Positions 21,478-60,674 of a stretch of DNA of 64,000 nt are shown piece after piece. The notes under the pieces were generated by a model. That model worked only from the letters and a program-made list of their open reading frames with translations. It was not told where the DNA came from and searched no databases. Position 1 is the first letter of the stretch. Each line of letters begins with the position of its first letter. Source of the DNA: Armatimonadota bacterium (GTDB taxonomy: Bacteria; Armatimonadota; UBA5829; DTJY01); assembly GCA_023511795.1 (NCBI GenBank), contig JAIMAU010000006.1:13159-77158 (forward strand), read 5' to 3'. A program made the position numbers and the translations under genes.

Positions 21478-21713
21478 GCTCCCCAGAGATAATTTTACTA
21501 GATTTTGAACATCCCTATCGAGCGCAACATCTTTAATACCTTCGCCGAGATGTATGGGAATTCCTTCGGAGTAGATGCTGCTGCCTACGTTACTAAGGCC
21601 GCAATAGTAGTTAGCAACTAGTATATTTACTGGTTGTCTTTCTGAAAGTTATTTGGTAGTCTAATTTATGGAAATTTTACACATTTTGGTAACTAATGTT
21701 TCGGAGAAGAAAC

Positions 21714-31300: not shown

Positions 31301-31435
31301 TTGTTCTCCTCCCAATATAATAAGCAGAATGGGAGAAAGTGATAACTATCACAGACTCCCTACTCCCCCATTCCCACTTCATCCCTAGCTATCGAACAAT
31401 AGTCTCTAAATTGCTTTTGCTAGCCAATGTCAAAG

Positions 31436-39368: not shown

Positions 39369-39815
39369 TTATCCCTCAACAGGAACTTTCTTCTCTTTCT
39401 CCTTCGCCTCCTCGGCCTTTGGAGCTACGACTTCTAGTACACCGTTCTTGAACGTAGCCTTAACTTCTTCGGGCTTAATGGCTACAGGCATGGGAATGCT
39501 GCGATAGAACCTACCAGCTCGTCTCTCCCGGCGATAGTAGCCTTCTTCTTTAACCTCTTCCTCGCGCTTGAACTCGCCCTTCAAGCTGATGCTGTCTTCC
39601 GTAGCCGTAACTTCGACGTCCTCCCGCTTTAGGCCAGGAAGCTCAGCCTTGATGACTATGTTGTTATCCCTTTCAAACATGTCAATCGCCGGGGAGATTA
39701 CCTCCTCTCGTGGCATCACGAGTAAAGGAGTTCTCCAAAATTCCTCAAACAGACGGTCCATCTCCTCTCGCATGCGTCTTAGCTCAGAGAATGGTTCCCA
39801 TCTCATTAAACTCAT
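39369..39815 (-). CDS. Hsp20/alpha-crystallin family small heat-shock protein
   Basis: Start at ATG (MSLMRWEPF) 5 nt after AGGAGGTGA; alpha-crystallin domain AIDMFERDNNIVIKAELPGLKREDVEVT...GVLEVVAPK. Confidence 0.9.
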   Translation of the reverse strand: MSLMRWEPFSELRRMREEMDRLFEEFWRTPLLVMPREEVISPAIDMFERDNNIVIKAELPGLKREDVEVTATEDSISLKGEFKREEEVKEEGYYRRERRAGRFYRSIPMPVAIKPEEVKATFKNGVLEVVAPKAEEAKEKEKKVPVEG

Positions 39816-39897: not shown

Positions 39898-40016
39898 TTT
39901 TTTAATACCCAGGAGAAAAACGAGCTTAAACTATTTGGATGACGAAAATTTGGGGGCTTTTCAAAGCATGTTGGGGCACAAGGGCTAACTAAGCACCTAC
40001 ACTACAATCTAGGATA

Positions 40017-40985
40017 TTACAACCACTTGATACGCTTAAAGTAATAGAGAAGAACGACACCAATCAATGCCATTAGACCTAAAGCGTAAGGATAACCATA
40101 TCGCCAAGTGAGTTCCGGCATGTAACGGAAATTCATACCGTAAATAGCCGCTACCAATCCCACTGAGATCAAGACTGTCGCTGCGACCGTGAGCGATTTC
40201 ATCACAGCATTGAGCTGATTGGAAATTACCGTGAGATAGGCATCCAGCGCACCTGCTAAGATGTCGCGATAGGTATCTATGGTGTCTACAATTCGCAAGG
40301 TGTGGTCGTAAATGTCGCGCAGATATGTCACTGCCTGCTCCGAAAGAAGCGGTTGGTCCCTTCGGGTTAGGATATTGAACATATCCCTCAGTGGAGTTGC
40401 AATCCTTCGCAAGACCAGCAAGGTTCGCTTCAGCCGAAATATTCTTTCAGGGGACTCTGCTGCTTCCTGCTTAAATATACTGGTCTCAATTTGGTCAAGC
40501 CTTTCGTCTATTTGGTCAAGGATGGGGAAATAAGAGTCTACCAGTGCGTCAAGAATATCGTACAACAGCAGTCCAACACCGCCCACAAATGCCTGGGGGT
40601 GCCGGCTCCACCTATCCGCAACCTCATGGAGAACTGCGAGCTCCTGCTTATGTAGAGTTACAATATAGTTTTTGCCCACAAAAATATCAAGCTCTATCGG
40701 CCGGACATCTTCCTTCTTTGGGTTGTATGTTACAAAGTGCGATACCAAGAAAAGATAGCCTGGATATTCATCAACCTTAGGCCTATGATGTGGAGTAAAA
40801 TAATCGTCTATTGCGAGCGGATGGAAACCAAACTCTGAGGCGAGCTTTTCCATCTCCTCTTTCGAAGGATTCATAGCGTCCAACCAAACAATAGTCTCTG
40901 GATCGGCAATAAAATCACTAATCTGGGCTATGTTTTTTATAATTTGGACGCCTTTATTCGGGTGATAAGCTGTAATGCGGAACAC
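40017..40985 (-). CDS. corA: magnesium/cobalt transporter CorA
   Basis: 322 aa; two C-terminal TM helices with YGMNF (GMN) motif; 11 nt after grpE. Confidence 0.9.
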   Translation of the reverse strand: MFRITAYHPNKGVQIIKNIAQISDFIADPETIVWLDAMNPSKEEMEKLASEFGFHPLAIDDYFTPHHRPKVDEYPGYLFLVSHFVTYNPKKEDVRPIELDIFVGKNYIVTLHKQELAVLHEVADRWSRHPQAFVGGVGLLLYDILDALVDSYFPILDQIDERLDQIETSIFKQEAAESPERIFRLKRTLLVLRRIATPLRDMFNILTRRDQPLLSEQAVTYLRDIYDHTLRIVDTIDTYRDILAGALDAYLTVISNQLNAVMKSLTVAATVLISVGLVAAIYGMNFRYMPELTWRYGYPYALGLMALIGVVLLYYFKRIKWL

Positions 40986-40996
40986 GTCGTAATATC

Positions 40997-41668
40997 CTAA
41001 CCGTCTTGGTCCACCCTGGGATGGTGGGCAACCTTTACGGCACTCGGTCTAATCACACGGCCATTCATGGTGTACCCTGTCCGAACCTCTTCAACGATAG
41101 TTTCGTCGGGGTATTCCGTCGTATCCACACGTGCAACAGCTTCATGCTTCATTGGGTCGAATTTTTCACCAACAGCTTTTATCGGTTCAACGCCTTCCTT
41201 CGCGAGGAGATCACGGAGTTGACGCAGGATGAGTATTACACCTCCATGCAGAGAGTCAAAATTCTTTGTCTCTTCTGCAGCTTTGATAGCCCTTTCAAAG
41301 TTGTCAAGAATTGGAAGCAACCGAATAATGAAGTCTTCGGTAGCAAATTTCCTTACTTGCTCCAACTCCTCCCTAGCACGGCGTCGGTAGTTGGTAAAAT
41401 CAGCAAGCGTTCGAAGGAAATTGTCATGCTCCTCCTCCGCTCGCCTCTCTGCTTCCTCACACCGTTCCTTTAAGATGCGAATGTCTTCGGGAAGTACTTC
41501 TTCTGCGGTGGATTCCACGACAATATCCGCTTCTTCAGGCGATTCTGAAAACACCTCAGGCGGAACTACGCCAGTCTCCTCAAGCTCTTTATCCCGGTGT
41601 TGTGCCTCAGACTCGGAAGAGTTTTGCGCTGAATTATTATTTATTGGAATTTTCCGTTTATTTGCCAT
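40997..41668 (-). CDS. grpE: nucleotide exchange factor GrpE
   Basis: 223 aa; ...DNFLRTLADFTNYRRRAREE...LLPILDNFERA...MNGRVIRPSAVKV. Confidence 0.9.
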   Translation of the reverse strand: MANKRKIPINNNSAQNSSESEAQHRDKELEETGVVPPEVFSESPEEADIVVESTAEEVLPEDIRILKERCEEAERRAEEEHDNFLRTLADFTNYRRRAREELEQVRKFATEDFIIRLLPILDNFERAIKAAEETKNFDSLHGGVILILRQLRDLLAKEGVEPIKAVGEKFDPMKHEAVARVDTTEYPDETIVEEVRTGYTMNGRVIRPSAVKVAHHPRVDQDG

Positions 41669-41767
41669 TTTTCTACCTCAATGAACAAATTTCACAGCTT
41701 GTTCTTTTCGAATATGATAATTCTTGTTAACCCTGGCATGCTTTTTCACACCAAAAGCTAATTACGT

Positions 41768-43342
41768 TCACTTACCCGCTGGCGGCTGAGCAGTCGCCTC
41801 GGTGTCATCATTACGCTTTTTAATTATGGTATTAATCCTGAGAACGGCGTCTGCAATCTCAGCAGCAGCCTTTAGAGCGTGAACTTTAACCTTTAAGGGA
41901 TCAACTACCCCCAGCTCCCACATATCGGCAACTTCGCCAGTATCGCATTCAATGGCAAGTGAGACCTTGCCTTGTTCTGCTTGGGCGGCTATCACGTCCT
42001 CGACTTTCTCAAGGGGGTTGAACCCAGCATTTGCAACGATTTGGCTCAGAGGTTTCTTAAGGGCCTCCGCCACACAATCAACGCCATAGGCTGCCATACC
42101 CTTAACCCCATCTCTCAGGAAAGAAACCTCTCTCGATGCAGCAATCTCGATAGAGCCACCGCCTGGAACAACCCCGCCTATAATAGCGGCCTGGACTGCT
42201 GAGGCGGCGTCGCGCGCAATCCGCTCGCGCTCGTCTCTGACCTCCCTTGTTGCTGCACCGACAAGTAGTGTGGCGGCAGGCTTCCCAATTCCGCCCATAA
42301 TACGTGTATGTTCCAACCTCTCATCTTCATATACCCGTGCGCATCGCCCAACAAACAAAGATAACTCCTCAAGCGATTTCTTTAGACCCGCTCGCTTTAT
42401 TGTCTTTGCACCCGTATGTTCCACAATCCTTGCTATGTCCCTCGTAGATACACGACGGAGAACTATAATACCAGCATCGGTAAGTAACTCCTCTGCCAAA
42501 TCTGCAACACCTTTATTTGTAACAACGAGACCAATTCCCAAATCAACGATTTTCCGCAAATTTTCACAAAACTCGTTTTGAAGTTGAACATATCGCGCAA
42601 AACCCGATTCTGTGCCAAGTGCATCATCTTCCATTCGTTCGGGCTCAAGCGCGTCATCAATTGCCAACACCTTGACATCTTTAAGCGATCGCGGCATCTG
42701 GCGGTTCATGCGCTCTTTCTCTATAATGAGACCTGTAAATACTTCGTTCTGCGCGCCTTCTTTTGCGACAATAGTATCAGCAAGTTTGAATGCTGGTTCC
42801 GCCAGTTTTTCTTTACCCACAAGCTTTGCCGCCTGGACGACCAAGTCTGCAATCTCGGCATCCTCTCTTCCGGCGATATAAGCCGCCTGCCAAAGAAGTG
42901 GGTCGTCGAAGTCCTTGACTTGCTTGCTTGCGGCTTCCAATACCTCAAGGGCTCTTTTCATACCAATGGAAAGCCCTTGTATCACCTTTGTCACCGGCAC
43001 GCCTCTAGATACCCTGCTGACTCCTTCCATTACAAGGGCAGAAGCTAGGATGGCAGCGGTAGTTGTGCCGTCGCCTACTTCTTCATCTTGAGCCTTGGCG
43101 GTACGGATAACTAACCTTGCGGCAGGGTGACTTATATCAATCTTGTCGAGAATCGTACTGCCATCATTGGTAATTGTCACGTCGCCGAACTTGTCAACGA
43201 GCATGCAATTCAGACCTTTAGGTCCAAGCGTTCCTTCAACAGACGAAGCAACCGCGCGCACTGCGGTTGCATTCGCAAGCAATGCCGCAAGGCGCTCATC
43301 CACGTCCGCCGACTTACTTACCTGCTTAATGTTTGAACTCAT
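41768..43342 (-). CDS. archaeal-type (group II-like; bacterial 'group III') chaperonin, thermosome/CCT family
   Basis: 524 aa. GTLGPKGLNCMLVDKFGDVTITNDGSTIL...HPAARLV...QDEEVGDGTTTAAILA, GIIVLRRVSTRDIARIVEHTGAKTI, VVPGGGSIE, ELGVVDPLKVKVHALKAAAEIADAVLRIN all match thermosome signatures, not GroEL (no GGM tail, no GroES partner). Confidence 0.88.
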   Translation of the reverse strand: MSSNIKQVSKSADVDERLAALLANATAVRAVASSVEGTLGPKGLNCMLVDKFGDVTITNDGSTILDKIDISHPAARLVIRTAKAQDEEVGDGTTTAAILASALVMEGVSRVSRGVPVTKVIQGLSIGMKRALEVLEAASKQVKDFDDPLLWQAAYIAGREDAEIADLVVQAAKLVGKEKLAEPAFKLADTIVAKEGAQNEVFTGLIIEKERMNRQMPRSLKDVKVLAIDDALEPERMEDDALGTESGFARYVQLQNEFCENLRKIVDLGIGLVVTNKGVADLAEELLTDAGIIVLRRVSTRDIARIVEHTGAKTIKRAGLKKSLEELSLFVGRCARVYEDERLEHTRIMGGIGKPAATLLVGAATREVRDERERIARDAASAVQAAIIGGVVPGGGSIEIAASREVSFLRDGVKGMAAYGVDCVAEALKKPLSQIVANAGFNPLEKVEDVIAAQAEQGKVSLAIECDTGEVADMWELGVVDPLKVKVHALKAAAEIADAVLRINTIIKKRNDDTEATAQPPAGK

Positions 43343-43411
43343 TTTTGAACTTAAGAAGGGATCCTGGGGCTGAGGGATTCAGGTATCCAGCAACCCGCCA
43401 TAACATGCTGA

Positions 43412-44449
43412 TTATCCAATACTTAATTGGGTCAGCATCTGGCTGAGGCTCGATGCCATTAGCTCAACAGCGGCCACTGCACGCCGATAATCCATCCTTG
43501 TAGGCCCTACTACTCCTATGCTCCCGCATACGCGATCGCCGATGTGATAGTTTGCTGTAACAAAGCTGCAATCGCTTAGCTCACAGAACTGGTTTTCCTC
43601 GCCGATAATGACGGTTACATCCTTGCCAAGTAATGCCGTGCTCAAAACCTGGAATAGGACTTTGCGCTTTTCAAGGGCGTTGAGAATCATCGTAAGCTTT
43701 TCTGTTCGGGAAAATTCCGGCTGTTTGAGAATATGGCTTGTTCCGTCTATGAAAACCTCGCTGTCAGTAGCCGCAACCAGCGCCTGCTTTACGAGGGCAA
43801 CCACCTTTTTGTAAAAAGCAGTCATTCTAAAAAGCTCTGCCGGCAGAGCATTTCTAATCCTAGTAGTAAATTCGCGCAACTCAGCACCTTGTAGACGCTC
43901 GTTAACTAGACTCCCAATAGAATTAAGGTCAACAGTGTTGAGGTCGCTCTCCCAATCTAGCAATCGGTGGTCAATATGTCCGGTGCTAAGTACAGTGATT
44001 ACAAGAAGCTTGCCCCGGCCAATTGGAGAGAGTGCTACATAGCGAACACTTATGGTGCCCATCTGTGGCTTAGTTGCCAGAGAAGTATATTGGGCCAATC
44101 CAGACAGAATCCGGCACGTCTGTAAAAGGATGTTCTCAATTTCGCTCTCATAAGGATTATATGCCGCCCTTGCACGCGAAGCTTCTGCTCGCCCCAGCTT
44201 GGGATCAGGCATTAGCTTGTCAACATAGTACCGATAGCCAAGGTCTGATGGTACGCGGCCCGCAGATTTGTGCGGTTGTTTCAAGTAGCCCAGCTCTGAC
44301 ATAGCTGCAAGCTCATGACGAATCATCGCGGGCTTAATTCCGAAGTTGTAGTTCGCCGCTAGCGTTTCCGAACCTACCGGTTCTGCAGTCCTCACATATT
44401 GATTTACAATTGCTTCCAGTATTTTGCTTCTCCGCTCGCCGAGTTCCAT
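43412..44449 (-). CDS. hrcA: heat-inducible transcription repressor HrcA
   Basis: Start at ATG (MELGERRSKILEAIV) 6 nt after GAGGTGA; winged-helix N-terminus; C-terminus VCGSIGVVGPTRMDYRR. Confidence 0.9.
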   Translation of the reverse strand: MELGERRSKILEAIVNQYVRTAEPVGSETLAANYNFGIKPAMIRHELAAMSELGYLKQPHKSAGRVPSDLGYRYYVDKLMPDPKLGRAEASRARAAYNPYESEIENILLQTCRILSGLAQYTSLATKPQMGTISVRYVALSPIGRGKLLVITVLSTGHIDHRLLDWESDLNTVDLNSIGSLVNERLQGAELREFTTRIRNALPAELFRMTAFYKKVVALVKQALVAATDSEVFIDGTSHILKQPEFSRTEKLTMILNALEKRKVLFQVLSTALLGKDVTVIIGEENQFCELSDCSFVTANYHIGDRVCGSIGVVGPTRMDYRRAVAAVELMASSLSQMLTQLSIG

Positions 44450-44503
44450 CGGCTTCACCTCAAATAACAAGGTAGCCGTATGCGCAAACCTTCTTCTGAT
44501 AAG

Positions 44504-52467: not shown

Positions 52468-53622
52468 ATGCCTCAAATCTTTGTCACAAGCACAGAATCG
52501 GATAATCCGTTTGCGATTGATATTGCTGTATACTGTAAGCAGACTATAGATATAGCCGACATTATTTCTCTAAAGACATTTGCGAACAGCGAATTTTGCC
52601 CGCGCTTTATCAGTGATGAGAACGACCTTCAGAATATTGGCAACAAGCTGTGCAACACGACTGTCATTATTGTTTCCACAGCCTCCAATAGTGTAAGCCG
52701 AAACGAACTCTCCTGGCGGACCCTACTAGTTGCAAGAGCAGCCAAAGATAATGGTGCTAAACAGGTCATTCTAATTGAGCCTGACCTTTTCTTCAGCGCT
52801 CAAGATCGAGGACCTAGACCCGAACACGGAGAGGTGGATTTTAAGCGCGACATATGGGACTATAAGAAATTTGACGGCCAACCTTTCAGTAGCAAGCTTT
52901 ACGCGGAGTCGCTGGCGCTCGCAGGAGTTGATGCTGTAATTACCGTACACAATCACTCAGCTTCCGTGCAAAGGCTTTTTAATCGAATCATGAATGGACG
53001 TTTCCTAAACCTATCTCCCGCCGAGGTTTTCGCAGACTATATCCGCAGGTCCGATGTAACACCAAGCCTGCATTCTGGTGATGGCGTGCTAATATGTGCG
53101 CCAGATAAAGGAGCAAGGGGCTTTGCCGTTGAGGTACAAAATAAGTTGGGTATGCCCTCTGCAGGATTGCTCTATATTGCTAAGGAGCGAACAGGCGAAC
53201 GGCATATATCAAGCTTTATTGACCCATCATCACCATGTCCTTTGGAAGCCATCCAGGGGAAGGACGTCGTAGTATTTGACGATATGGTGCGCACTGGCGG
53301 AACAATTAAAGAATGCTGTCGTCTACTGAAAGAAGCTGGCGCAGGCAGGGTTGTCTTCTTCGTTACCCACTTTTACTCTTCCCCAGAGGTACGCGAGAAT
53401 CTCAACAGCCCCGACCTCGACGAGATTATCACTACCAACACCCTGCCCTCAATCTTGAATCGAGACATGCAGGGACGACTGCGACGTAAGCTCACGGTCC
53501 TAAAGATAGAGAAGTGGATATCCCACCACATCTTAAGTTATTTGGGCTTTCCCACCGACCACCTTACTGGCCAATTGTATTCAGTAGATATGTCCTCTAA
53601 AAATCCACGTTGGTCACCATAA
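52468..53622 (+). CDS. divergent ribose-phosphate pyrophosphokinase-like (Prs-family/PRTase) protein
   Basis: 384 aa; N-domain Prs-like (SAQDRG vs YARQDRK), PRPP-binding loop VVVFDDMVRTGGT; longer and divergent from the canonical prs at 19003-19953. Confidence 0.65.
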   Translation: MPQIFVTSTESDNPFAIDIAVYCKQTIDIADIISLKTFANSEFCPRFISDENDLQNIGNKLCNTTVIIVSTASNSVSRNELSWRTLLVARAAKDNGAKQVILIEPDLFFSAQDRGPRPEHGEVDFKRDIWDYKKFDGQPFSSKLYAESLALAGVDAVITVHNHSASVQRLFNRIMNGRFLNLSPAEVFADYIRRSDVTPSLHSGDGVLICAPDKGARGFAVEVQNKLGMPSAGLLYIAKERTGERHISSFIDPSSPCPLEAIQGKDVVVFDDMVRTGGTIKECCRLLKEAGAGRVVFFVTHFYSSPEVRENLNSPDLDEIITTNTLPSILNRDMQGRLRRKLTVLKIEKWISHHILSYLGFPTDHLTGQLYSVDMSSKNPRWSP

Positions 53623-53873
53623 TGGACTAAACGAAAATTCGCATTTATTAAGGACCGCAACCCCAACATATTAAAACACAAACAATAAATAAGTAACCGC
53701 TCGCGGCCGGGGTGGTCGAGTATCACCAAAATTTTCGCATACTTCCAATAACTCTTTCACAGATGTGAAATCCAAACTACCAAGCAACCAAATATTGAGG
53801 GAACTAGCTTAAGTTGGGTATTATTTACAAATGCGGGATAAATTTTGGTTATAAAATTAGGAGGAATGCGAGC

Positions 53874-54389
53874 ATGGAAGAGGTGTTTAAAAAAACCTCA
53901 GTGGAAACTATCACCCTAAACCCCTTCGAGATAGTGTTAAAAGATTGGATGTTGGTTACAGCCGGGCCGCCGGAAGATTACAACACAATGACAGCAGGGT
54001 GGGGCGGCATGGGTGCGCTATGGGGTAAGCCCATATGCTTTTGCGTAATCCGCCCAACCCGGCACACATACAAGTTTCTGGAGAAAAATGAGAACTTCAC
54101 CCTTTGTTTCTTCTCAGAAGAATATAAGGAGGCGCTTCAATTTTGCGGCAGTAAATCGGGCCGTGATGTGCCAGATAAAGCAAGACAGGCAGGGTTGACC
54201 CCGATGCCTGGCATGCTACCAATGACAAGTGTCTTTAAGGAGGCAAGATTGGTTTTTGAATGTCGAAAAATATATATTCAAGATATAGACCCGAAAAACT
54301 TCCTTGACCCAAATATTGAACAATGGTACCCACAGAAAGACTATCACCGACTGTATGTAGGTGAGGTGATAAATTGCTGGACAAAATAA
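53874..54389 (+). CDS. flavin reductase-like (FMN-binding split barrel) protein
   Basis: Start at ATG after AGGAGG; 171 aa; composition and length fit flavoredoxin/flavin reductase fold. Confidence 0.6.
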   Translation: MEEVFKKTSVETITLNPFEIVLKDWMLVTAGPPEDYNTMTAGWGGMGALWGKPICFCVIRPTRHTYKFLEKNENFTLCFFSEEYKEALQFCGSKSGRDVPDKARQAGLTPMPGMLPMTSVFKEARLVFECRKIYIQDIDPKNFLDPNIEQWYPQKDYHRLYVGEVINCWTK

Positions 54390-54479
54390 ATACACTATAA
54401 GTTTTAATATGACATCGTTATTTGTCTTAAGTGAATACTACCAACCGATTGCTAAATAAATTTCTTATCATGCTTCTTG

Positions 54480-54506
54480 GTTTAATTGCTGCCGTTTGCT
54501 GGGTAG
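54480..54506 (+). promoter_or_regulatory. sigmaB-type (general stress) promoter-like element GTTTAA-N15-GGGTAG upstream of STAS-kinase operon
   Basis: Matches Bacillus sigmaB consensus GTTTAA-N12-15-GGGTAT; about 80 nt upstream of STAS gene ATG. Confidence 0.4.
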
Positions 54507-54585
54507 GTTAAATAAGACAATCTTAAAAGGTTAATAGTATAACTAGCCACAATATTCCATAGAGAAAGGCCATGGAGGGCAATAT

Positions 54586-54945
54586 ATGGATATAGAAATC
54601 ACACACAATTCTTGCACTGCTGTTAAGGTACATGGCGAAATCGACATCGGCAATGTAGATGAATTTAGTGCAATGCTTGAAAAAGCAGCCAAGGATGCCC
54701 AAAACGGCTGTTTAGTGGTGGATTTATCGTCGGCAACATATATAGACGGCGCAGGAATCAAGGAGATTCTGCGTATTTATCATAGGCTGATTTCATTAGG
54801 AGGTGCCATTGCAGTAGTACCAAGCAAAATGGCACAAAGGATTCTTGAAATTCTCAGGGCTCATGAGCTTCCTGGCTTTAAAATCTGCGATGATTTTCAG
54901 ATGGCTATAAAAGCGCTTTTAAGCTATACAGGTAATTTACAATGA
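54586..54945 (+). CDS. STAS-domain anti-sigma factor antagonist (SpoIIAA/RsbV-like)
   Basis: 119 aa; ...VVDLSSATYIDGAGIKEIL... conserved phosphorylatable Ser region; GGAGGG SD. Confidence 0.8.
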   Translation: MDIEITHNSCTAVKVHGEIDIGNVDEFSAMLEKAAKDAQNGCLVVDLSSATYIDGAGIKEILRIYHRLISLGGAIAVVPSKMAQRILEILRAHELPGFKICDDFQMAIKALLSYTGNLQ

Positions 54946-56375
54946 ACTATCAAGTTTCATACGAACCGCAATCAGAAGTTCCTAGAAAAACACAGAATGC
55001 TGAAATGACCCGTTATCCGATATGGTTAGGCTACTTTGCAACAATTGCTCTAGAAGCAATTTTAACTCTGATATTAAGTTTGTTGCCTCCAAGCTTTCCT
55101 TTGTATGAGTTTCCTATTCCCTATGTTTTGCTAACCATGCTGGTTGCTATTCTCTTCGGGGAAGGGCCAGCAATACTAGCATTTGTGCTTGGTTTCTTCA
55201 CCTTCGACTACTTTTTCATACCACCTCTCTACACAATATTTCCGCAGGCGGAAACCCAGCAAGGTTGGACTGCTCTTATAGCATATCTTATAGGTTCATC
55301 AATAGTCGGATTTGCTACGATAATGATGCGGAAAGCGCGCCAGCGAATCCAACAAATAGCAGACCAGCTCAGAGAAATACAAAAGGATCTCAACCGGGCC
55401 CAAGCCGTCGCTCATACCGGGAGCTGGAGGTTAGACGTTCAACAAAATGTGCTAATTTGGTCTGACGAAGTATATCGAATATTTGGAATACCACGAGGAA
55501 CACCTATGACATATGAGAAATTCCTGGAATGCGTCCATCCGGAGGATAGAGAATACGTTGATCAAAAATGGAAATCAGCCCTTCAAGGCGAGCCTTATGA
55601 CATCGAACATCGAATCATAGTGGATGGCAAAATTAAATGGGTTCGGGAACGCGCAGAGTTAGAGTTTGACGAACAAGGAAGGCCGCGTGGCGGGTTTGGA
55701 ACGGTGCAAGACATTACCGACCTAAAGCAAGCTGAAGAAGCCATTCGTGAAAGCGAGGAGCATAAGATTGAGTTCTACCGCCGCACAATTATGGCCGCTA
55801 CAGAAGGAAAACTAATAATTACAGAACATTCGGAAATAGAAAAGATTGCTGGGCCGCCTTTGGCTACTTGGGAAATAAAGACTCCTGAGGATCTCAGAAC
55901 CGTGAGGCATGGCGCAGAAGAGATGGCAAGGTCTTTGGGAATGGACGAAGAAAAAATCAGCAAGTTTGTTGTAAGCATTGGAGAAGCAGCAACAAATGCA
56001 TTGAAACACTCGGGTGGGGGTACCGCTACCCTCCATCGAACGCAAAACGGCTTAATGGTCGTTATATCAGACAAAGGACCTGGAATCGCCGCCCTTTCAC
56101 TGCCCGACATAGCACTAACAAAAGGCTACTCCACGGCTGGCACGCTGGGCATGGGGTATAAGGTGATGATTTCGTTCAGCGACAGAGTTTATTTGGCAAC
56201 TGGGCCCGAAGGCACTACGGTAGGTATAGAGATGAACCTATCAGACATTGAAACATCCGAGGTGCAAAGTGCTATAGGAGCGGCTGGTTTAAAGTGTGAA
56301 GCCAGCAGTGGAAGCGAAACAAAGCCGCAAACTCTATTTTCAATGGCTCCCTTTTTTAATAGCATAGTGACATAA
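54942..56375 (+). CDS. membrane sensor: 4-TM (KdpD/DUF4118-like) + PAS + RsbW/SpoIIAB-like GHKL serine kinase
   Basis: 477 aa; overlaps STAS gene by ATGA; PAS (GSWRLDVQQNVLIWSDEVYRIFG...HPEDRE); C-terminus EAATNALKHSGGG...VISDKGPGI HATPase_c. Confidence 0.75.
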   Translation: MNYQVSYEPQSEVPRKTQNAEMTRYPIWLGYFATIALEAILTLILSLLPPSFPLYEFPIPYVLLTMLVAILFGEGPAILAFVLGFFTFDYFFIPPLYTIFPQAETQQGWTALIAYLIGSSIVGFATIMMRKARQRIQQIADQLREIQKDLNRAQAVAHTGSWRLDVQQNVLIWSDEVYRIFGIPRGTPMTYEKFLECVHPEDREYVDQKWKSALQGEPYDIEHRIIVDGKIKWVRERAELEFDEQGRPRGGFGTVQDITDLKQAEEAIRESEEHKIEFYRRTIMAATEGKLIITEHSEIEKIAGPPLATWEIKTPEDLRTVRHGAEEMARSLGMDEEKISKFVVSIGEAATNALKHSGGGTATLHRTQNGLMVVISDKGPGIAALSLPDIALTKGYSTAGTLGMGYKVMISFSDRVYLATGPEGTTVGIEMNLSDIETSEVQSAIGAAGLKCEASSGSETKPQTLFSMAPFFNSIVT

Positions 56376-56385
56376 TAAGCCTTTT

Positions 56386-57513
56386 ATGCAACTCTCACCA
56401 CGTGAAAGAATTCTACATGTTTACAAGGGCAAGATACCTGATGCGGTACCCTTCATGCTTGACCTATCGCATTGGTTCTACCACAAAACCAGAGCGCCAT
56501 GGGACCTTAGCTCCAGCTACCAGGAGCCTGAGAAAGCGTTAATTGACTATCATAAGCGCATGGGCGTTGGTTTTTACATGCCAAATCTGGCAGCTTTCTT
56601 CTCAATAGAGCATACAGACGGCGTCAATCTGGAAATTAATAAGGAATTCCAGGCTGGCAAATGCGAAATTGTGTGGCGTTATAATACACCCATTGGAAGC
56701 ATTGAGAGAAGACGCATTTGGAATTCCAATACGTATTCCTGGTCGGTCAGTCGCTGGGGATTTGAGTCAGCGAATGATATACGGGTGCTTGAATATGCAC
56801 TAACATCCCGCAGATATGTGCCGCAGTGGGACAATTACAAAGCATGGGCAGACTATGTTGGCGATATAGGAGTTGTCTATATTCCGGCAGGGTACAGCGC
56901 AGTCGGACAACTCCTTCACTATTGGATGGGAATCGAGCGATTTGTGTACGCCGCCCATGATTACCCCAATACAATGCGCGAGGTCGTTAAAAAAATCAAC
57001 GCCAATAATCTTGAATGCATAGACATGCTCTGCTCATCCCCAGCTGAGGTTATAATAATGGGCGATAATTTTTCAAGCGATGTCCAGCCGCCACATTTCT
57101 TCAAAGAATGGTCACAAAACTACTACTTTGAAGCCATCAGCCGCCTTCATTCTGCTGGGAAATTCGTTGCAATACATATAGACGGGCGATTGAAGGGTGC
57201 ACTGGCGATGATTCGTGCGACAGGCGCCGATTGTGCTGATGCGGTAACACCCACACCCATGGGCGACCTAACGCCAGATGAATGCCGGTCAGAGGCAGGC
57301 CCGGAGCTTATTCTTTCTGGCGGCGTTTCGCCGGAACTCTGGCTACCCAACACAAACATCGAAGACTTTAGGTATGCTGTAATGCGATGGCTGGACCTCC
57401 GGAAGCAAAGCCCTCGGTTAATCGCTAATGCCGGCGACCAAGTTCCCCCAGGAGCAGAAGAAAGCCGGATTGCTCTGATGCGCGATTTGGTTGAGAAGTA
57501 CGGCAAATACTAG
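56386..57513 (+). CDS. URO-D/MtaA-like family protein, paralogue 2
   Basis: 375 aa; same family features as 35597-36697 and 57521-58615. Confidence 0.7.
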   Translation: MQLSPRERILHVYKGKIPDAVPFMLDLSHWFYHKTRAPWDLSSSYQEPEKALIDYHKRMGVGFYMPNLAAFFSIEHTDGVNLEINKEFQAGKCEIVWRYNTPIGSIERRRIWNSNTYSWSVSRWGFESANDIRVLEYALTSRRYVPQWDNYKAWADYVGDIGVVYIPAGYSAVGQLLHYWMGIERFVYAAHDYPNTMREVVKKINANNLECIDMLCSSPAEVIIMGDNFSSDVQPPHFFKEWSQNYYFEAISRLHSAGKFVAIHIDGRLKGALAMIRATGADCADAVTPTPMGDLTPDECRSEAGPELILSGGVSPELWLPNTNIEDFRYAVMRWLDLRKQSPRLIANAGDQVPPGAEESRIALMRDLVEKYGKY

Positions 57514-57520
57514 CGCTTTG

Positions 57521-58615
57521 CTACCACAATTCTTTCAAGAGTTCAATCATGTACTTGAAATTCTCAAACTTGGCGTTTGGGGGAACAGCATGGTCGACGG
57601 CAGGAATCCAGCCAAGACGCGCATAAAGCTTAGTTGCCTTTGGAACTACCTCTGCCTCAACATCAGCCCTTTCGCCAATTAGACAACGTTTATCCAAACC
57701 ACCAATGAAAAGGAACTGTGGATATCTCTCAGCATACTCAACAATGTCTTGCTCGGCAGCTATCTCAACAGGGCTTGTGCCGTCTACCCCAGCTTCGATC
57801 CAAAAAGGAATCAATTCGCTTATGTGCCCGTCGCTGTCAACGAACACTTTGTCTGCACAGATACTCTTCGCTTCTTGCACAAGCTCTCGATATCGTGGCA
57901 AGAATTTATCTCGAAGGATAACAGGTGAAACCATGCATGCAGTTTTATATGCCATATCTTCATTAATCATAAGATTATCCACGTGTGCATCGGCAAGATG
58001 CTTGCGCAGTAACCGCACATTGAAATCGAGCACGAAATCAAGCATCTCATCCACGAGCTCTGGCAAGTCATAAAACGCCATCGAAAGACCTTCGAAGCCC
58101 ATCCACTGTCGTAGTGTCCAATAGAAGCCTTGTATGGTAAACATCACGGGACGCTCAGCAGTATGGGAGCGCCGAACGGCCTCATCGAAGCATTGTCCAC
58201 GGCGCCTAGGGTCCTCAGGATCATAGCGCTCCTTCATCCTCAGGAAATCATCTCTGTTTTCGACAGGAAACTTAAGCCATTTCCGAGTGACAAAGCCACT
58301 ACCCTGGGCATCTCTGCGTTCGGTGCGGAGGGCACCTTCCTCATCATAGTAGGTAACTTGACCATCTTTTTCTTCGACAATTATCAACTCGAATTTTGGG
58401 CAATGTGATGTGTTGAGAGGAATGCCTTCGAACCAATCATATCCAAGAAATTCGGCGGTGCTAATGCCCTCGGGATGCCCCTGCTTTATCCACTCGTCCA
58501 TAGTTCCCTTTCGCGTAGGAAAGGTCCAGATGAATGGTCTGTCGGGCCGCTGAAAATCCATTATAGCGCGATATCGTTCTCTCGGCGTTGTAGAATGAAC
58601 GCTATTCACAGACAT
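57521..58615 (-). CDS. URO-D/MtaA-like family protein, paralogue 3
   Basis: 364 aa; convergent with paralogue 2, 7-nt gap. Confidence 0.7.
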   Translation of the reverse strand: MSVNSVHSTTPRERYRAIMDFQRPDRPFIWTFPTRKGTMDEWIKQGHPEGISTAEFLGYDWFEGIPLNTSHCPKFELIIVEEKDGQVTYYDEEGALRTERRDAQGSGFVTRKWLKFPVENRDDFLRMKERYDPEDPRRRGQCFDEAVRRSHTAERPVMFTIQGFYWTLRQWMGFEGLSMAFYDLPELVDEMLDFVLDFNVRLLRKHLADAHVDNLMINEDMAYKTACMVSPVILRDKFLPRYRELVQEAKSICADKVFVDSDGHISELIPFWIEAGVDGTSPVEIAAEQDIVEYAERYPQFLFIGGLDKRCLIGERADVEAEVVPKATKLYARLGWIPAVDHAVPPNAKFENFKYMIELLKELW

Positions 58616-58673
58616 TGCCGCTTAGTTACCTTATTCCAGAAAGATCAAACAACACAGTCAACGTGTCCCTACC

Positions 58674-60674
58674 TTACAATTCTAGATTCAGCCATTTCAA
58701 TTCGTCCGGCGATAATTGTACATTTAGCCCGGCAAGAAGAGTCCTCAGCTCCTCAAGATTTGCTGGCCCAGCCAGGGCAAATGTCGGGAATGGTTGGCAA
58801 AGTACATAAGCAAGGGCAATGCTTACCGGGGGAACACCCTTCTTTTCTGCCATTTCCAAAAGCCGCTCGGCACGAAGGATGTTGTCCTCACTATGCCAGC
58901 AACGAATCATCTCTGGGTCGGTATGATTCCTGGGATGACCATAGGCGAAGAAGCCCCGGGCAAGGCTCGACCATGCCATGAGTGGCATCTGGGTTTTCAC
59001 AAACCATGCACGGGACTGGGAATCGGACGAGGCAAGGCAGCCAGCCCATGGTGGCTCTATCATTCTGGCGAGGCTAAAGTTGTTGCTCACTGCAGCAATC
59101 CCTTTGAGTCCTTTTTGTCGAGCGTACTCGTTCGCCGCCTCTATACGCTCAATTGTCCAATTTGACACGCCAAAGACCTTTATTCTCCCTGCGTGCAAAT
59201 GCTCATTTAAAACATCGATAAACTCACCTACCGGTATGTCAGGGTTATCACGATGCATCATATAGATGTCCACATAATCAGTGCCCAATCGGTCAAGGCT
59301 CTCAAAAAGCTGGCTTGTCAAATCTATAGGGTTACAGAAAGGCGTATGCGCGCCCTTATCTAGAATGACCACCTGCTCGCGGATTCCACGATTTCTAATC
59401 CACTGACCGAGAATACGCTCACTATTACCGCCACCATAGATGTAAGCCGTATCGAAGCAGTTGCCACCTTGGCGGAAAAACTCGTCGAATAGGATTGAGC
59501 AGGATGCGAGTGGGGAAACGCCGCCGCCACCAACGGCGCCCATCGCGATGCGAGATACCGGTTTCTCAAGCCCAGGAATCGAGCCATACCTCATATTTGC
59601 ATCCGAGCGTATTGTCAGCGGCCGATGGTCAATCGTCGGGAAGTTTGCGTCCGGCTTCTCGATATCGTAGACGAGACCCACAGCCTGGCGCCACATGTCC
59701 AAGGTCTTCATATTGCCCAAGCTGTCGTCCCAGGTCATTGCTGGTGGCGGGGCTTGGCGCTTCTCGATATTCTTAGCCACTATATCAGCCTCATGTGTGT
59801 AACTGCTAGCGTCATTTGGCACGAGCACTTCTTTGGGCTGCTCGCCATTTCGGTTCACGACGATTCGTGCAGGCTCGCCCGCCTTGCTTCCAAACCACGG
59901 TGCAGGAATTAAGATGTTGCCTTCGGAGCCGAAAATGCGCACCACATTCTCTTGGTTCAGCGCCACACCTGTCGAAATTTGCGCGATGATATCACCTGGG
60001 AATTGCATTATTCCGACCGCCCACTCGTCAACCCCCGTCTCGCCAAGGTGAGCAACACCTTTCACCTCAATAGGGTCCTCAAAAGGCTTCCCATGAGCCG
60101 CGCCTGCGATTAGGCGAGATATTGAAGTAGTATAACAGCCAACATCCAGAATTCCACCACCTCCAAGGGCGTTGTTAAAAAGTCGGCTCTCAGGATTAAA
60201 TCCGGCATGGAAACTAAAAGTTGCTTGAATAATCCTCACATCGCCTATGGCTCCCTCGCGAATTAGCTCGACAAGCCTGGTTATCTGGGGATGGCAGCGA
60301 TACATAAAGGCCTCCATAAGAAAGACATCGTGCCTCCGAACAGCCTCAATGACTGCCATCGCCTCGGGGTAGTTTAAAGTGAGCGGCTTCTCACAAAGTA
60401 TGTGCTTTTTCGCCTCAGCAGCCTTTACCGCCCATTCGGCATGCATCGGATGAGGAGTCGAGATATAGACTGCCTGCACGTCTGGATCGGCAAGGAGCGC
60501 CTCATAACTCCCATATCTACGCGGAACGTTGTATTCATCGCCAAACCGGTCTGCCGCTTCTTGGGTACGACTCCCAACGGCAAGTACTTCCCCGGTGCTT
60601 GACTCTGCAACCGCCTTCGCAAATACGCCTGAAATTCGACCTGTGCTTAAAATTCCCCAAGCTAGCTTGCCCAT
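58674..60674 (-). CDS. fusion protein: N-terminal Gfo/Idh/MocA NAD(P)-oxidoreductase + C-terminal aldo/keto reductase
   Basis: 666 aa; N-terminus GILSTGRIS...EKPLTLN (Rossmann + EKP); C-terminus GGNCFDTAYIYGGG...IKVFGVSNW (AKR motifs). Confidence 0.75.
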   Translation of the reverse strand: MGKLAWGILSTGRISGVFAKAVAESSTGEVLAVGSRTQEAADRFGDEYNVPRRYGSYEALLADPDVQAVYISTPHPMHAEWAVKAAEAKKHILCEKPLTLNYPEAMAVIEAVRRHDVFLMEAFMYRCHPQITRLVELIREGAIGDVRIIQATFSFHAGFNPESRLFNNALGGGGILDVGCYTTSISRLIAGAAHGKPFEDPIEVKGVAHLGETGVDEWAVGIMQFPGDIIAQISTGVALNQENVVRIFGSEGNILIPAPWFGSKAGEPARIVVNRNGEQPKEVLVPNDASSYTHEADIVAKNIEKRQAPPPAMTWDDSLGNMKTLDMWRQAVGLVYDIEKPDANFPTIDHRPLTIRSDANMRYGSIPGLEKPVSRIAMGAVGGGGVSPLASCSILFDEFFRQGGNCFDTAYIYGGGNSERILGQWIRNRGIREQVVILDKGAHTPFCNPIDLTSQLFESLDRLGTDYVDIYMMHRDNPDIPVGEFIDVLNEHLHAGRIKVFGVSNWTIERIEAANEYARQKGLKGIAAVSNNFSLARMIEPPWAGCLASSDSQSRAWFVKTQMPLMAWSSLARGFFAYGHPRNHTDPEMIRCWHSEDNILRAERLLEMAEKKGVPPVSIALAYVLCQPFPTFALAGPANLEELRTLLAGLNVQLSPDELKWLNLEL

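What the first reader, a model, noticed from the sequence alone, without database searches (positions are those of the whole stretch)
54480..56375. Partner-switching module behind a sigmaB-like promoter: STAS antagonist + membrane PAS serine kinase, no sigma factor gene adjacent
A STAS-domain antagonist gene and a 477-aa protein (4 TM + PAS + RsbW-like HATPase) are translationally coupled (ATGA overlap). They are preceded by GTTTAA-N15-GGGTAG, a close match to the Bacillus sigmaB promoter consensus. In classical RsbV-RsbW-SigB operons the sigma factor follows the kinase, but here URO-D-like genes follow, so the target of this kinase-antagonist pair is unknown. A membrane-anchored PAS-linked anti-sigma kinase is an unusual architecture.
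Basis: partly seen in the sequence, partly recalled or inferred. Interest (0 to 1): 0.55.

Follow-up and report, generated by a model that had tools for sequence, protein, structure and literature searches.

The report
Stress-promoter sensor kinase with serine-less partner
An uncultured Armatimonadota bacterium has a two-gene signalling unit, a small partner protein and a membrane sensor fused to an anti-sigma-type kinase, behind a conserved general-stress promoter; it is a variant of a well-known bacterial switch, but the partner protein has lost the serine that normally gets phosphorylated.

Summary
There is a 119-aa STAS gene (54586-54945). It overlaps by ATGA a 477-aa protein (54942-56375) built of 4 TM/DUF4118, PAS and HATPase_c_2. 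GTTTAA-N15-GGGTAG lies 79 nt upstream, and no sigma gene is nearby.

The kinase domain is SpoIIAB/RsbW-like by HMM, profile and predicted fold, with no H-box.

The promoter is real. The same -35/-10 blocks with a 15-nt spacer are kept in diverged orthologous loci. They also sit upstream of hsp20 in the window and in three independent hsp20 orthologous loci (61% GC against 48% here), and they are enriched at paralogous kinase operons.

- The STAS protein has Gly where SpoIIAA Ser58 / RsbV Ser56 lies. The Gly is kept in 67-100% identical orthologues under purifying selection, so the adjacent pair cannot work by the classical phosphorylation cycle.
- The architecture is not a one-off. It belongs to a large Armatimonadota family (at least 7 paralogues in one genome), often next to STAS or SpoIIE-type phosphatase genes and never next to a sigma gene.

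Best reading: an accessory, binding-only sensor branch of a sigmaB/F-type stress network acting in trans. The closest precedents are mycobacterial RsfA-RsbW3 and Rv1365c-Rv1364c. The sigma factor itself could not be looked for. New variant of a known kind, moderate interest.

The parts
54480..54506 (+). SigmaB/F-type promoter-like element: -35 GTTTAA (54480-54485), 15-nt spacer, -10 GGGTAG (54501-54506). The transcript start is expected about 7-10 nt downstream.
   Evidence: 2 matches against 0.03 expected. The same blocks and spacing are kept in the orthologous loci L001, L003 (GTTTGG-N15-GGGTAT) and L073 (GTTTCA-N15-GGGTAA), while the rest of the intergenic DNA diverges. No sigma70-type match lies in this intergenic region.
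54573..54578 (+). Ribosome-binding site GGAGGG, 7 nt before the STAS start codon.
   Evidence: Read from the sequence. Conserved in L001, L003 and L073.
54586..54945 (+). STAS-domain protein, 119 aa (GenBank MCL6519636.1), without the canonical phospho-acceptor serine.
   Evidence: Pfam STAS E 9e-12. TIGR00377 scores 44.2 bits, below its 53.45 cut-off. dN/dS is 0.14-0.33 against orthologues.
54748..54750 (+). Codon GGC = Gly55, at the position of SpoIIAA Ser58 / RsbV Ser56 (motif I-D-G-A-G instead of D-S-x-G).
   Evidence: Alignments. Conserved in P0121, P0122 and P0123. 143 of 164 aligned domains from the 150 nearest cluster representatives have Ser/Thr here.
54942..56375 (+). Membrane sensor fused to an RsbW/SpoIIAB-type GHKL domain, 477 aa (GenBank MCL6519637.1). 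Its start overlaps the STAS stop (ATGA).
   Evidence: dN/dS is 0.08-0.10.
55017..55331 (+). Four transmembrane segments / DUF4118 (residues about 26-130).
   Evidence: Pfam DUF4118 E 1.5e-13. Hydropathy scan.
55392..55727 (+). Cytoplasmic PAS domain (PAS_3 type, residues about 151-262), ligand unknown.
   Evidence: Pfam PAS_3 E 1.4e-15 and PAS E 1.1e-8. TIGR00229 E 1e-11.
55728..55880 (+). Linker (residues 263-313): a long helix carrying the family signature FYRRTIMAAT-EGKL (nt 55773-55802), then a short strand and helix. The His in 'EEHK' (55755-55766) is not conserved.
   Evidence: F, Y, A, A, T, G and L are invariant in 29 homologues. The His is replaced by S, E, Q or N in homologues. The model has a helix at residues 2-31 of the construct.
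55881..56225 (+). HATPase_c_2 domain. Motifs: N-box GEAATNALKH (55980-56009), G1 SDKGPGI (56067-56087), lid/G2 GTLGMGYK (56139-56162), and Arg322 (within 55899-55913) equivalent to SpoIIAB Arg20.
   Evidence: The best PDB matches by profile are SpoIIAB (4e-7) and RsbW (8e-7), with the invariant Arg aligned to F-A-R20. The Foldseek top 15 are SpoIIAB, RsbW and UsfX.
56386..57513 (+). URO-D-family gene 10 nt after the kinase stop, possibly co-transcribed. Not a conserved part of the unit.
   Evidence: No terminator-like site lies between the two genes. Pfam URO-D E 5e-18. It follows the kinase in L001 but not in L073 or L003.
39905..39931 (-). Second copy of the same promoter type, GTTTAA-N15-GGGTAT, 90 nt upstream of hsp20. 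It marks the same putative regulon.
   Evidence: GTTTAR-N15-GGGTAT lies 62-78 nt upstream of the hsp20 orthologues in L057/L058, L059 and L072; synteny with the window was checked and found only for L057-L059.
39372..39815 (-). hsp20 (148 aa), a co-member of the putative regulon.
   Evidence: Pfam HSP20 E 1.3e-21.

Best explanation
This is an accessory sensor branch of a sigmaB/sigmaF-type (group 3) general-stress partner-switching network in an Armatimonadota bacterium.

Shown:
- A conserved GTTTAA-N15-GGGTAG promoter, of the type also found in front of hsp20, lies upstream of a translationally coupled pair.
- The first gene encodes a STAS protein.
- The second encodes a dimer-type membrane sensor (4 TM/DUF4118, PAS, long helix) whose output domain is a SpoIIAB/RsbW-type ATP-binding domain. 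All nucleotide-binding motifs and the Arg that SpoIIAB uses to bind its partners are intact.
- The STAS protein has Gly at the phospho-acceptor site, so it cannot be switched off by phosphorylation there.

Inferred:
- The two proteins form a binding-only pair. The STAS protein acts as a permanent antagonist or pseudosubstrate of RsbW-type domains.
- Its binding to, or release from, the membrane sensor is set by the signal read by the PAS/TM part, and by ATP/ADP.
- The pair acts in trans on a soluble anti-sigma/sigma pair, or on Ser-bearing STAS proteins, encoded elsewhere.
- Because the operon is read from the promoter type of that sigma factor, it feeds back on the response. This resembles rsbV-rsbW in Bacillus and rsbW3 in Mycobacterium smegmatis.

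Whether the kinase domain binds the sigma factor itself is open.
For: Kinase domain:
- HATPase_c_2 scores 53.8 bits against HATPase_c 27 bits, with no HisKA.
- The candidate His is not conserved in homologues.
- The model has pLDDT 86, and its best PDB folds are SpoIIAB, RsbW, UsfX and the Rv1364c RsbW domain.
- The profile hits SpoIIAB at 4e-7 and RsbW at 8e-7, with the invariant Arg on SpoIIAB R20.

Promoter:
- 2 exact matches against 0.03 expected.
- The blocks and the 15-nt spacer are kept upstream of the STAS gene in L003 (kinase 57% identical) and L073 (STAS 71%), in otherwise diverged DNA.
- The same motif lies upstream of hsp20 in the window and in L057/58, L059 and L072. The L057-L059 loci are syntenic with the window, and these loci have 60-62% GC against 48% in the window. 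Distant hsp20 genes carry TTGACA/TATAAT instead.
- 7 of 31 relaxed matches lie at the starts of module genes against 0.66 expected. The gene-based control gives 5/64 against 10/500, P = 0.02.
- Other genes behind the motif include BON-domain and DUF2795 proteins and a MEDS-PP2C-STAS-kinase operon.

Serine-less STAS:
-.
- Purifying selection on both genes.

Network:
- 49 family loci in Armatimonadota genomes, 7 of them in one 5.37-Mb genome.
- About 11 of those 49 loci (15 of the 56 loci scanned) have a STAS gene next to the kinase, most of them with D-S-x-G. About 13 of 49 have a SpoIIE-type PP2C nearby.
- The same DUF4118-PAS sensor is also found fused to PP2C.

Precedent: in M. smegmatis RsbW1 is the anti-sigma factor, RsbW2 is a kinase only, and RsbW3 lies next to the phosphorylation-independent RsfA. 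RsbW3 is read from a SigF promoter (GTTT-N17-GGGTAA) and boosts SigF (PMC7693655).
Against: - No group 3 sigma gene was seen in the window or in about 1 Mb of related loci. The rest of the genome could not be searched, so the sigma factor is inferred from promoters only.
- No binding or phosphorylation data exist.
- The kinase keeps every catalytic motif under strong selection. That is not needed for a binding-only role and suggests substrates elsewhere.
- The promoter enrichment at paralogues is modest under the conservative control (P = 0.02).
- In the L003/L004 orthologue the STAS reading frame has no canonical start codon at the homologous position (ATA). The STAS partner may therefore be dispensable in some lineages.
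Confidence: 0.5

Rival explanations
1. Classical reading. The membrane kinase is itself the anti-sigma factor. It holds a sigmaB-like factor at the membrane, and the STAS protein displaces it.
For: - SpoIIAB/RsbW are the best fold and profile matches, ahead of other GHKL proteins.
- The Arg equivalent to SpoIIAB R20, used for both sigmaF and SpoIIAA binding (established knowledge of SpoIIAB), is invariant in the family.
- The operon sits behind the sigma-type promoter, as rsbV-rsbW-sigB does in Bacillus.
Against: - The STAS protein cannot be phosphorylated at the canonical site. A co-translated, permanently active antagonist would keep such an anti-sigma factor neutralised unless the sensor gates binding.
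- None of about 50 family loci has an adjacent sigma gene.
- With at least 7 paralogues per genome and many sensor types, most are more likely feeders than sigma binders, as shown for RsbW2 and RsbW3 in M. smegmatis (PMC7693655).
Confidence: 0.2
2. Partner switching with an output that is not a sigma factor. The STAS protein or the kinase controls an enzyme, a transporter or second-messenger synthesis, as do SypA/SypE, BtrV/BtrW, HsbA/HsbR, SiaC/SiaB and the cyanobacterial IcfG cluster. The promoter then only makes the unit stress-induced.
For: - There is no sigma gene anywhere near the family.
- The unit keeps the same neighbours (NAD synthetase, a PRPP-synthetase-like gene, a flavin reductase-like gene, URO-D-family genes) in window/L001, L073 and L003/L004.
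- A URO-D-family gene follows 10 nt after the kinase stop with no terminator between.
- Non-canonical STAS-only proteins with non-sigma outputs are reviewed in PMC8256260.
Against: - The downstream cistron is not conserved: URO-D in the window, flavin reductase in L003, a convergent gene in L073. The shared neighbours may be plain synteny.
- The known non-sigma systems still use a phosphorylatable serine (PMC8256260), which this STAS protein lacks.
- The promoter link to a sigmaB-type regulon is conserved across genomes.
Confidence: 0.22
3. The STAS gene is a decaying remnant, and the sensor kinase now works alone or with other STAS proteins.
For: - The phospho-serine is lost in the whole orthologous lineage: Gly in window, L001, L073 and P0123; Val in L003.
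- The L003/L004 copy lacks a canonical start codon, and gene callers miss or truncate it.
Against: - dN/dS is 0.14-0.33.
- The reading frame, RBS, ATGA coupling and the motif YIDGAGIKE are kept at 67-100% identity.
Confidence: 0.06
4. The C-terminal domain belongs to a degenerate two-component histidine kinase, and the promoter match is chance.
For: - DUF4118 and PAS are typical histidine-kinase sensor modules, and the same sensors are fused to HisKA-HATPase_c in relatives.
- A His (residue 274) sits in the helix after PAS.
Against: - There is no HisKA match.
- The His is not conserved.
- Histidine kinases appear only as weak, poorly superposed fold matches (TM 0.34-0.40, rmsd above 10 Å), behind SpoIIAB and RsbW.
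- The promoter is conserved in orthologues and at hsp20.
Confidence: 0.02

Closest known systems
Bacillus subtilis RsbV-RsbW-sigmaB (and SpoIIAA-SpoIIAB-sigmaF)
   Same: - A STAS protein is followed by an overlapping gene for a SpoIIAB/RsbW-type GHKL domain.
- The promoter is of the sigmaB type (consensus GTTTaa-N12-15-GGGwAw, from my own knowledge of Petersohn et al. 1999).
- N, G1 and G2 boxes and the R20-equivalent Arg are present.
   Different: - There is no sigma gene in the operon.
- The kinase domain is the C-terminal third of a 477-aa membrane PAS sensor, not a 140-160-aa soluble protein.
- The STAS protein has Gly in place of the phosphorylated Ser.
- No PP2C gene is nearby.
Mycobacterial SigF system: rsfA-rsbW3 of M. 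smegmatis and Rv1365c (RsfA)-Rv1364c of M. tuberculosis
   Same: - An antagonist that is not controlled by phosphorylation (RsfA, which is redox-controlled) sits next to an RsbW homologue with an N-terminal extension, away from sigF.
- rsbW3 is read from a SigF promoter (GTTT-N17-GGGTAA) and acts by protein binding as a feedback booster.
- The anti-sigma and kinase roles are split among paralogues (PMC7693655).
- Rv1364c joins a sensor domain to an RsbW-type domain (my own knowledge). Its RsbW domain (3ke6) is a fold match.
   Different: - Here the sensor is membrane-anchored (DUF4118), and no PP2C or STAS domain is fused to it.
- Nothing shows redox-active cysteines in the STAS protein.
- Different phylum. 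The family carries its own FYRRTIxAATxGKL linker signature.
Non-sigma partner switches: SypE/SypA, BtrW/BtrV, HsbR/HsbA, SiaB/SiaC, cyanobacterial Slr1861 cluster
   Same: - An RsbW-type kinase and a STAS protein are encoded without a sigma gene.
- Kinase domains are fused to other signalling domains.
- SiaB (6kko) is a weak fold match. These systems are reviewed in PMC8256260.
   Different: - These systems depend on phosphorylation of the conserved STAS serine.
- They are not known to sit behind sigmaB-type promoters.
KdpD-type and PAS sensor histidine kinases
   Same: The same N-terminal sensor set (DUF4118 four-helix membrane domain, PAS_3) and a long helix leading into a GHKL domain.
   Different: There is no DHp/HisKA domain, no conserved His, and the GHKL domain is of the HATPase_c_2 class.

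Membership tests
RsbW/SpoIIAB-type anti-sigma serine kinases (HATPase_c_2, PF13581) | GHKL ATP-binding domain that scores as HATPase_c_2, with N, G1 and G2 boxes | tested here: met
   PF13581 E 2.5e-14 (53.8 bits, cut-off 27.4) against PF02518 at 27 bits. GEAATNALKH, SDKGPGI and GTLGMGYK are present and conserved in 29 homologues.
RsbW/SpoIIAB-type anti-sigma serine kinases (HATPase_c_2, PF13581) | Fold and profile closest to SpoIIAB/RsbW, with the Arg equivalent to SpoIIAB R20 present | tested here: met
   The Foldseek top 15 are SpoIIAB, RsbW and UsfX. hmmsearch against PDB gives SpoIIAB 4.4e-7 and RsbW 8e-7, with the invariant Arg aligned to F-A-R20.
RsbW/SpoIIAB-type anti-sigma serine kinases (HATPase_c_2, PF13581) | Small soluble single-domain protein (about 140-160 aa) | tested here: not met
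   477 aa with 4 TM, DUF4118 and PAS in front of the domain.
RsbW/SpoIIAB-type anti-sigma serine kinases (HATPase_c_2, PF13581) | Phosphorylates the conserved serine of its cognate STAS partner | tested here: not met
   The adjacent STAS protein has Gly55 at that position. Kinase activity itself cannot be tested here.
RsbW/SpoIIAB-type anti-sigma serine kinases (HATPase_c_2, PF13581) | Binds and inhibits a sigma factor, usually encoded next to it | not testable with these tools
   No sigma gene lies in the window or within 10 kb of any of about 50 family loci. Binding cannot be assessed.
SpoIIAA/RsbV-type anti-sigma factor antagonists (TIGR00377) | Single STAS domain of about 110-120 aa next to an RsbW-type gene | tested here: met
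   PF01740 E 9e-12, 119 aa, ATGA overlap with the kinase gene.
SpoIIAA/RsbV-type anti-sigma factor antagonists (TIGR00377) | Conserved D-S-x-G loop with the phosphorylatable Ser | tested here: not met
   The motif is I-D-G-A-G. TIGR00377 scores 44.2 bits, below its 53.45 cut-off. 87% of aligned domains from the 150 nearest cluster representatives have Ser/Thr.
SigmaB/sigmaF-type (group 3) promoters | -35 GTTTaa, a spacer of about 12-17 nt and -10 GGGTAt, placed upstream of a gene | tested here: met
   GTTTAA-N15-GGGTAG lies 79 nt before the ATG. 2 matches against 0.03 expected in the window.
SigmaB/sigmaF-type (group 3) promoters | Conservation of the two blocks and their spacing in orthologous upstream regions, and sharing by stress genes | tested here: met
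   L003 and L073 upstream of the STAS gene. hsp20 in the window and in L057/58, L059 and L072. BON and DUF2795 genes behind the motif.
SigmaB/sigmaF-type (group 3) promoters | A cognate SigB/F-family sigma factor in the same genome, and a mapped transcript start | not testable with these tools
   Only the window and fetched loci could be read. Attempts to walk along the contig failed.
Two-component sensor histidine kinases | DHp/HisKA domain with a conserved phospho-accepting His | tested here: not met
   No HisKA-family match. His274 is replaced by S, E, Q or N in homologues.
Stressosome (RsbR/RsbS/RsbT) | Two kinds of STAS protein (RsbR with an N-terminal sensor, and RsbS) plus an RsbT kinase in one operon | tested here: not met
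   There is only one STAS gene and no other STAS or HATPase_c_2 gene in the window. RsbT is not among the top fold matches.

The most novel reading that the evidence does not exclude
Armatimonadota run a sigmaB-like general stress response through a large, dispersed set of sensor-RsbW and sensor-PP2C fusion proteins. In this lineage one pair has become a phosphorylation-independent switch: a membrane PAS sensor holds, and on signal releases, a permanently active serine-less STAS antagonist (or holds the sigma factor itself at the membrane). The input would then enter through the kinase's own sensor rather than through a phosphatase. This would also be the first evidence for a sigmaB-type regulon (hsp20, BON, DUF2795, the modules themselves) in this phylum.
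Probability: 0.2. Interest if true: 0.6.

Novelty: new variant of a known kind. Interest (0 to 1): 0.45.

Why it matters
Partner switching is a textbook way of controlling alternative sigma factors, known mainly from Firmicutes and Actinobacteria. This locus gives sequence-level evidence that a barely studied, mostly uncultured phylum uses the same promoter type and the same protein folds, wired differently:
- Sensors are fused directly to the RsbW-type domain.
- The parts are scattered over the genome.
- At least one conserved pair has its phosphorylation site removed.

If confirmed, three things follow:
- It would give a compact system for studying how a sensor domain, rather than a phosphatase, can gate STAS binding.
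- It would give a promoter motif (GTTTAR-N15-GGGTAT) with which to predict the stress regulon of Armatimonadota from metagenomes.
- It shows that current annotation ('PAS domain-containing protein', 'STAS domain-containing protein') hides this system.

Tried and rejected
- Histidine-kinase reading: rejected. There is no HisKA, the His is not conserved, and histidine kinases are only weak fold matches.
- Chance promoter: rejected by conservation in orthologues and at hsp20.
- Promoter enrichment: the raw test (P = 3e-6) may be inflated by intergenic base composition. A gene-based control still gives P = 0.02.
This says nothing about the rest of the genome.
- Walking along the source contig with the outermost window proteins failed: no exact product is on record, probably because of start-codon choice.
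- Rfam found no credible match in 53600-58700 (one chance-level hit, 18.8 bits against a gathering score of 60, E 0.68). Only chance-level inverted repeats lie around the promoter.
- Literature searches for sigma or anti-sigma work in Armatimonadetes gave nothing specific.
- URO-D genes as targets of the promoter: no motif lies upstream of them.
- CIRCE element for the nearby hrcA cluster: none at up to 3 mismatches.
Full report
**1. What is in the sequence**

The two reading frames are as described. The STAS gene is 54586-54945 (119 aa) and the second gene is 54942-56375 (477 aa). Both are on the + strand, and stop and start overlap as ATGA.

Pfam gives the following:
- STAS for the first protein, E 9e-12.
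- DUF4118 at residues 31-137 of the second.
- PAS_3/PAS at residues 151-258.
- HATPase_c_2 at residues 314-428, E 2.5e-14 (53.8 bits). The generic HATPase_c model scores only 27 bits.
- No HisKA-type domain.

A hydropathy scan shows four hydrophobic segments between residues 27 and 129.

GTTTAA-N15-GGGTAG lies at 54480-54506, 79 nt before the ATG, and a GGAGGG ribosome-binding site lies 7 nt before the start. The pattern GTTTAA-N13-16-GGGTAK occurs twice in the window against 0.03 expected. The other copy is 90 nt upstream of an hsp20 gene (39372-39815, minus strand).

Two URO-D-family genes follow the kinase. No sigma70-family gene and no further STAS, HATPase_c_2 or PP2C gene is detectable in any frame of the window.

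**2. Source**

The proteins are identical to GenBank MCL6519636.1 ('STAS domain-containing protein') and MCL6519637.1 ('PAS domain-containing protein'). Both come from a 149,760-bp contig of an Armatimonadetes MAG.

**3. The kinase domain is RsbW/SpoIIAB-like, not a histidine kinase**

A His (residue 274, 'EEHK') does sit in the helix after PAS. In homologues it is replaced by S, E, Q or N, while the neighbouring FYRRTIxAATxGKL motif is invariant.

A model of residues 256-445, built on 29 homologues (pLDDT 86), shows a long helix followed by a GHKL domain. Its best PDB matches are SpoIIAB (1til, 1l0o, 1th8), RsbW (6m36, 6m37), UsfX (8jzt, 8ih8), the RsbW domain of Rv1364c (3ke6) and SiaB. Histidine kinases come later, with poor superposition.

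A profile search of PDB sequences gives SpoIIAB 4e-7 and RsbW 8e-7. It places the family's invariant Arg (Arg322) on SpoIIAB Arg20. From established work on SpoIIAB, that residue contacts both SpoIIAA and sigmaF. N-box, G1 and G2/lid motifs are intact.

**4. The STAS partner lacks the phospho-serine**

When aligned with SpoIIAA and RsbV, the loop reads I-D-G-A-G. Gly55 (codon 54748-50) stands at the position of SpoIIAA Ser58 / RsbV Ser56.

- STAS proteins next to paralogous kinases mostly have D-S-[AGS]-G (L002, L008, L011, L013, L015, L016, L023, L035, L049, L053), as does a STAS gene about 5.5 kb from the kinase in L051.
- The window lineage has Gly (window, L001, L073/P0122, P0123), and its syntenic relative L003 has Val.
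- The gene is not decaying. dN/dS is 0.14-0.33 for STAS and 0.08-0.10 for the kinase.
- Among the 150 nearest 50%-identity cluster representatives, 143 of 164 aligned domains have Ser/Thr here and about 13% have A, G, C, V or N. Serine-less STAS proteins are therefore a recurrent minority, not unique.

Consequence: this kinase cannot switch off its neighbour at the canonical site, so the pair is not a classical RsbV-RsbW cycle.

**5. The promoter is functional-looking and defines a regulon**

Upstream of the STAS gene:
- L003 (kinase 57% identical) has GTTTGG-N15-GGGTAT.
- L073 (STAS 71% identical) has GTTTCA-N15-GGGTAA.
- Both sit at the same distance from the conserved RBS, while the surrounding DNA has diverged.

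Upstream of hsp20:
- GTTTAR-N15-GGGTAT lies 62-78 nt upstream of the hsp20 start in L057/58, L059 and L072. The L057-L059 loci are syntenic with the window, and these loci have 60-62% GC against 48% in the window.
- Distant hsp20 genes from other organisms show TTGACA/TATAAT instead.

Across 0.96 Mb of family loci:
- 7 of 31 relaxed matches (GTTTnn-N13-16-GGGTAn) lie at the starts of module genes against 0.66 expected.
- A more conservative gene-by-gene control gives 5/64 against 10/500 (P = 0.02). It does not count operons that begin with a STAS gene.
- Other genes behind the motif include a BON-domain protein, a DUF2795 protein, an M50-CBS peptidase and a MEDS protein that heads a MEDS-PP2C-STAS-kinase operon.

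The motif matches the B. subtilis sigmaB consensus (GTTTaa-N12-15-GGGwAw, my own knowledge). It also matches the mycobacterial SigF consensus GGWWT-N16-17-GGGTAY (PMC7693655). I infer a SigB/F-type sigma factor in these organisms. I could not look for its gene.

**6. The family**

- The C-terminal module (FYRRTIxAAT helix + HATPase_c_2) was found at 49 loci in species-representative genomes. Most records are titled Armatimonadota/Armatimonadetes MAGs and the rest are titled only 'bacterium' or 'metagenome'; seven loci lie in the 5.37-Mb genome OY970325.1. The scan used two family-specific peptide patterns, so absence elsewhere is not shown.
- N-terminal sensors vary: DUF4118, one to several PAS, GAF, CHASE, receiver, PocR. 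The same DUF4118-PAS(-GAF) sensors are also fused to SpoIIE-type PP2C phosphatases and to HisKA kinases.
- About 11 of the 49 loci (15 of the 56 loci scanned) have a STAS gene next to the kinase and about 13 of 49 have a PP2C gene nearby, in varying order. None has a group 3 sigma gene within 10 kb.
- Cultured Armatimonadetes are described as having dispersed, 'disorganized' gene order (PMC4959169). Fimbriimonas is reported to have 40 sigma genes, including three rpoD-type (PMC4072686). A sigma gene far from its regulators is therefore unsurprising.

**7. Mechanism**

Shown: the promoter type and its conservation, the coupling of the two genes, the fold and motifs of the kinase domain, the loss of the phospho-serine, and the family context.

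Inferred:
- The STAS protein binds RsbW-type domains but cannot be inactivated by phosphorylation. It behaves like the SpoIIAA S58A or RsbV S56A mutants, which are permanently active antagonists (established genetics, my own knowledge).
- Binding to the membrane sensor is set by the PAS/TM input and by the nucleotide state.
- The pair acts in trans on a soluble anti-sigma/sigma pair, or competes with Ser-bearing STAS proteins for kinases.
- Its own expression from the sigma-type promoter gives feedback.

The closest worked example is M. smegmatis (PMC7693655). There RsbW1 is the anti-sigma factor and RsbW2 is only a kinase. RsbW3 has an N-terminal extension, lies next to the phosphorylation-independent RsfA, is read from a SigF promoter, and boosts SigF by protein binding. 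In M. tuberculosis the equivalent neighbour of RsfA is Rv1364c, which couples a sensor domain to an RsbW-type domain (my own knowledge; 3ke6 is a fold match).

I give this reading 0.5. The other readings are:
- The direct membrane anti-sigma factor, 0.2.
- A non-sigma output, 0.22.
- A decaying STAS gene, 0.06.
- A histidine kinase with a chance promoter, 0.02.

**8. Comparison, novelty and score**

The unit works like a partner switch and uses its folds. It fails two defining features of the classical families: a small soluble kinase, and a phosphorylatable STAS serine. A third, sigma binding, cannot be tested.

It is best called a new variant of a known kind: a sensor-fused RsbW-type protein with a serine-less STAS partner, inside a phylum-specific expansion. 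I found no paper describing it.

A specialist would find it interesting but not startling, because sigma-less partner switches, split RsbW roles and phosphorylation-independent antagonists all have precedents. Interest 0.45.

Noticed in passing
window 39905-39931 (-) and 39372-39815 (-): hsp20 carries an exact GTTTAA-N15-GGGTAT promoter-like site 90 nt upstream. The motif is conserved upstream of hsp20 in L057/58, L059 and L072, although those loci have 60-62% GC against 48% in the window.
   Followed up: yes
window 40017-44470 (-): A heat-shock cluster lies next to hsp20: hrcA (43412-44470), cpn60/groEL-like (41768-43342), grpE (40997-41668), then a CorA Mg2+ transporter (40017-40985). No CIRCE element was found anywhere in the window at up to 3 mismatches, even though hrcA is present.
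   Followed up: partly
window 38177-39262 (-): The gene directly downstream of hsp20 encodes a 361-aa protein with an RskA_C (anti-sigma-K C-terminal) domain, E 1.4e-8. It is syntenic with hsp20 in L057-L059. It may be a membrane anti-sigma-like protein in the same transcription unit.
   Followed up: partly
window 35597-36697 (-), 56386-57513 (+), 57521-58615 (-): There are three URO-D-family paralogues in 64 kb, with only weak similarity to MtaA/CmuA methyltransferases (NCBIfam, far below cut-off). A flavin reductase-like gene (53814-54389) stays next to the STAS-kinase unit in window/L001, L073 and L003. This could be plain synteny or a hint at the PAS signal.
   Followed up: partly
L003 5610-6020 and L004 (same sequence): The orthologous STAS frame is intact and has the conserved RBS. 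At the position of the start codon it reads ATA, and it has Val at the phospho-site. Gene callers miss it (L003) or call only an 80-aa fragment (L004).
   Followed up: partly
L035 7182-7991: An Armatimonadota locus encodes, after a sensor kinase and a PP2C, a single protein that fuses a STAS domain (with D-S-G) to a small RsbW-like HATPase_c_2 domain.
   Followed up: no
L042 6199-10558: The promoter motif GTTTGG-N14-GGGTAA precedes a four-gene operon: MEDS-domain protein, PP2C, STAS (D-K-A-V, also serine-less) and sensor kinase.
   Followed up: partly
window 58674-60674 (-): A 666-aa protein fuses a Gfo/Idh/MocA oxidoreductase to an aldo/keto reductase domain (Pfam families from the gene table of the 95% identical contig L001).
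   Followed up: no
cluster of the window kinase (P0276, MDH7481844.1): In another MAG (271,904-bp contig) the same kinase is annotated as only a 194-aa 'ATP-binding protein', which suggests a frameshift or a miscalled start there.
   Followed up: no
window 21696-24902 (+): A 1068-aa protein with Golvesin_C, CarboxypepD_reg and CBM_4_9 domains. Together with several glycoside-hydrolase-like genes (29117-33718), it fits a carbohydrate-scavenging lifestyle.
   Followed up: no
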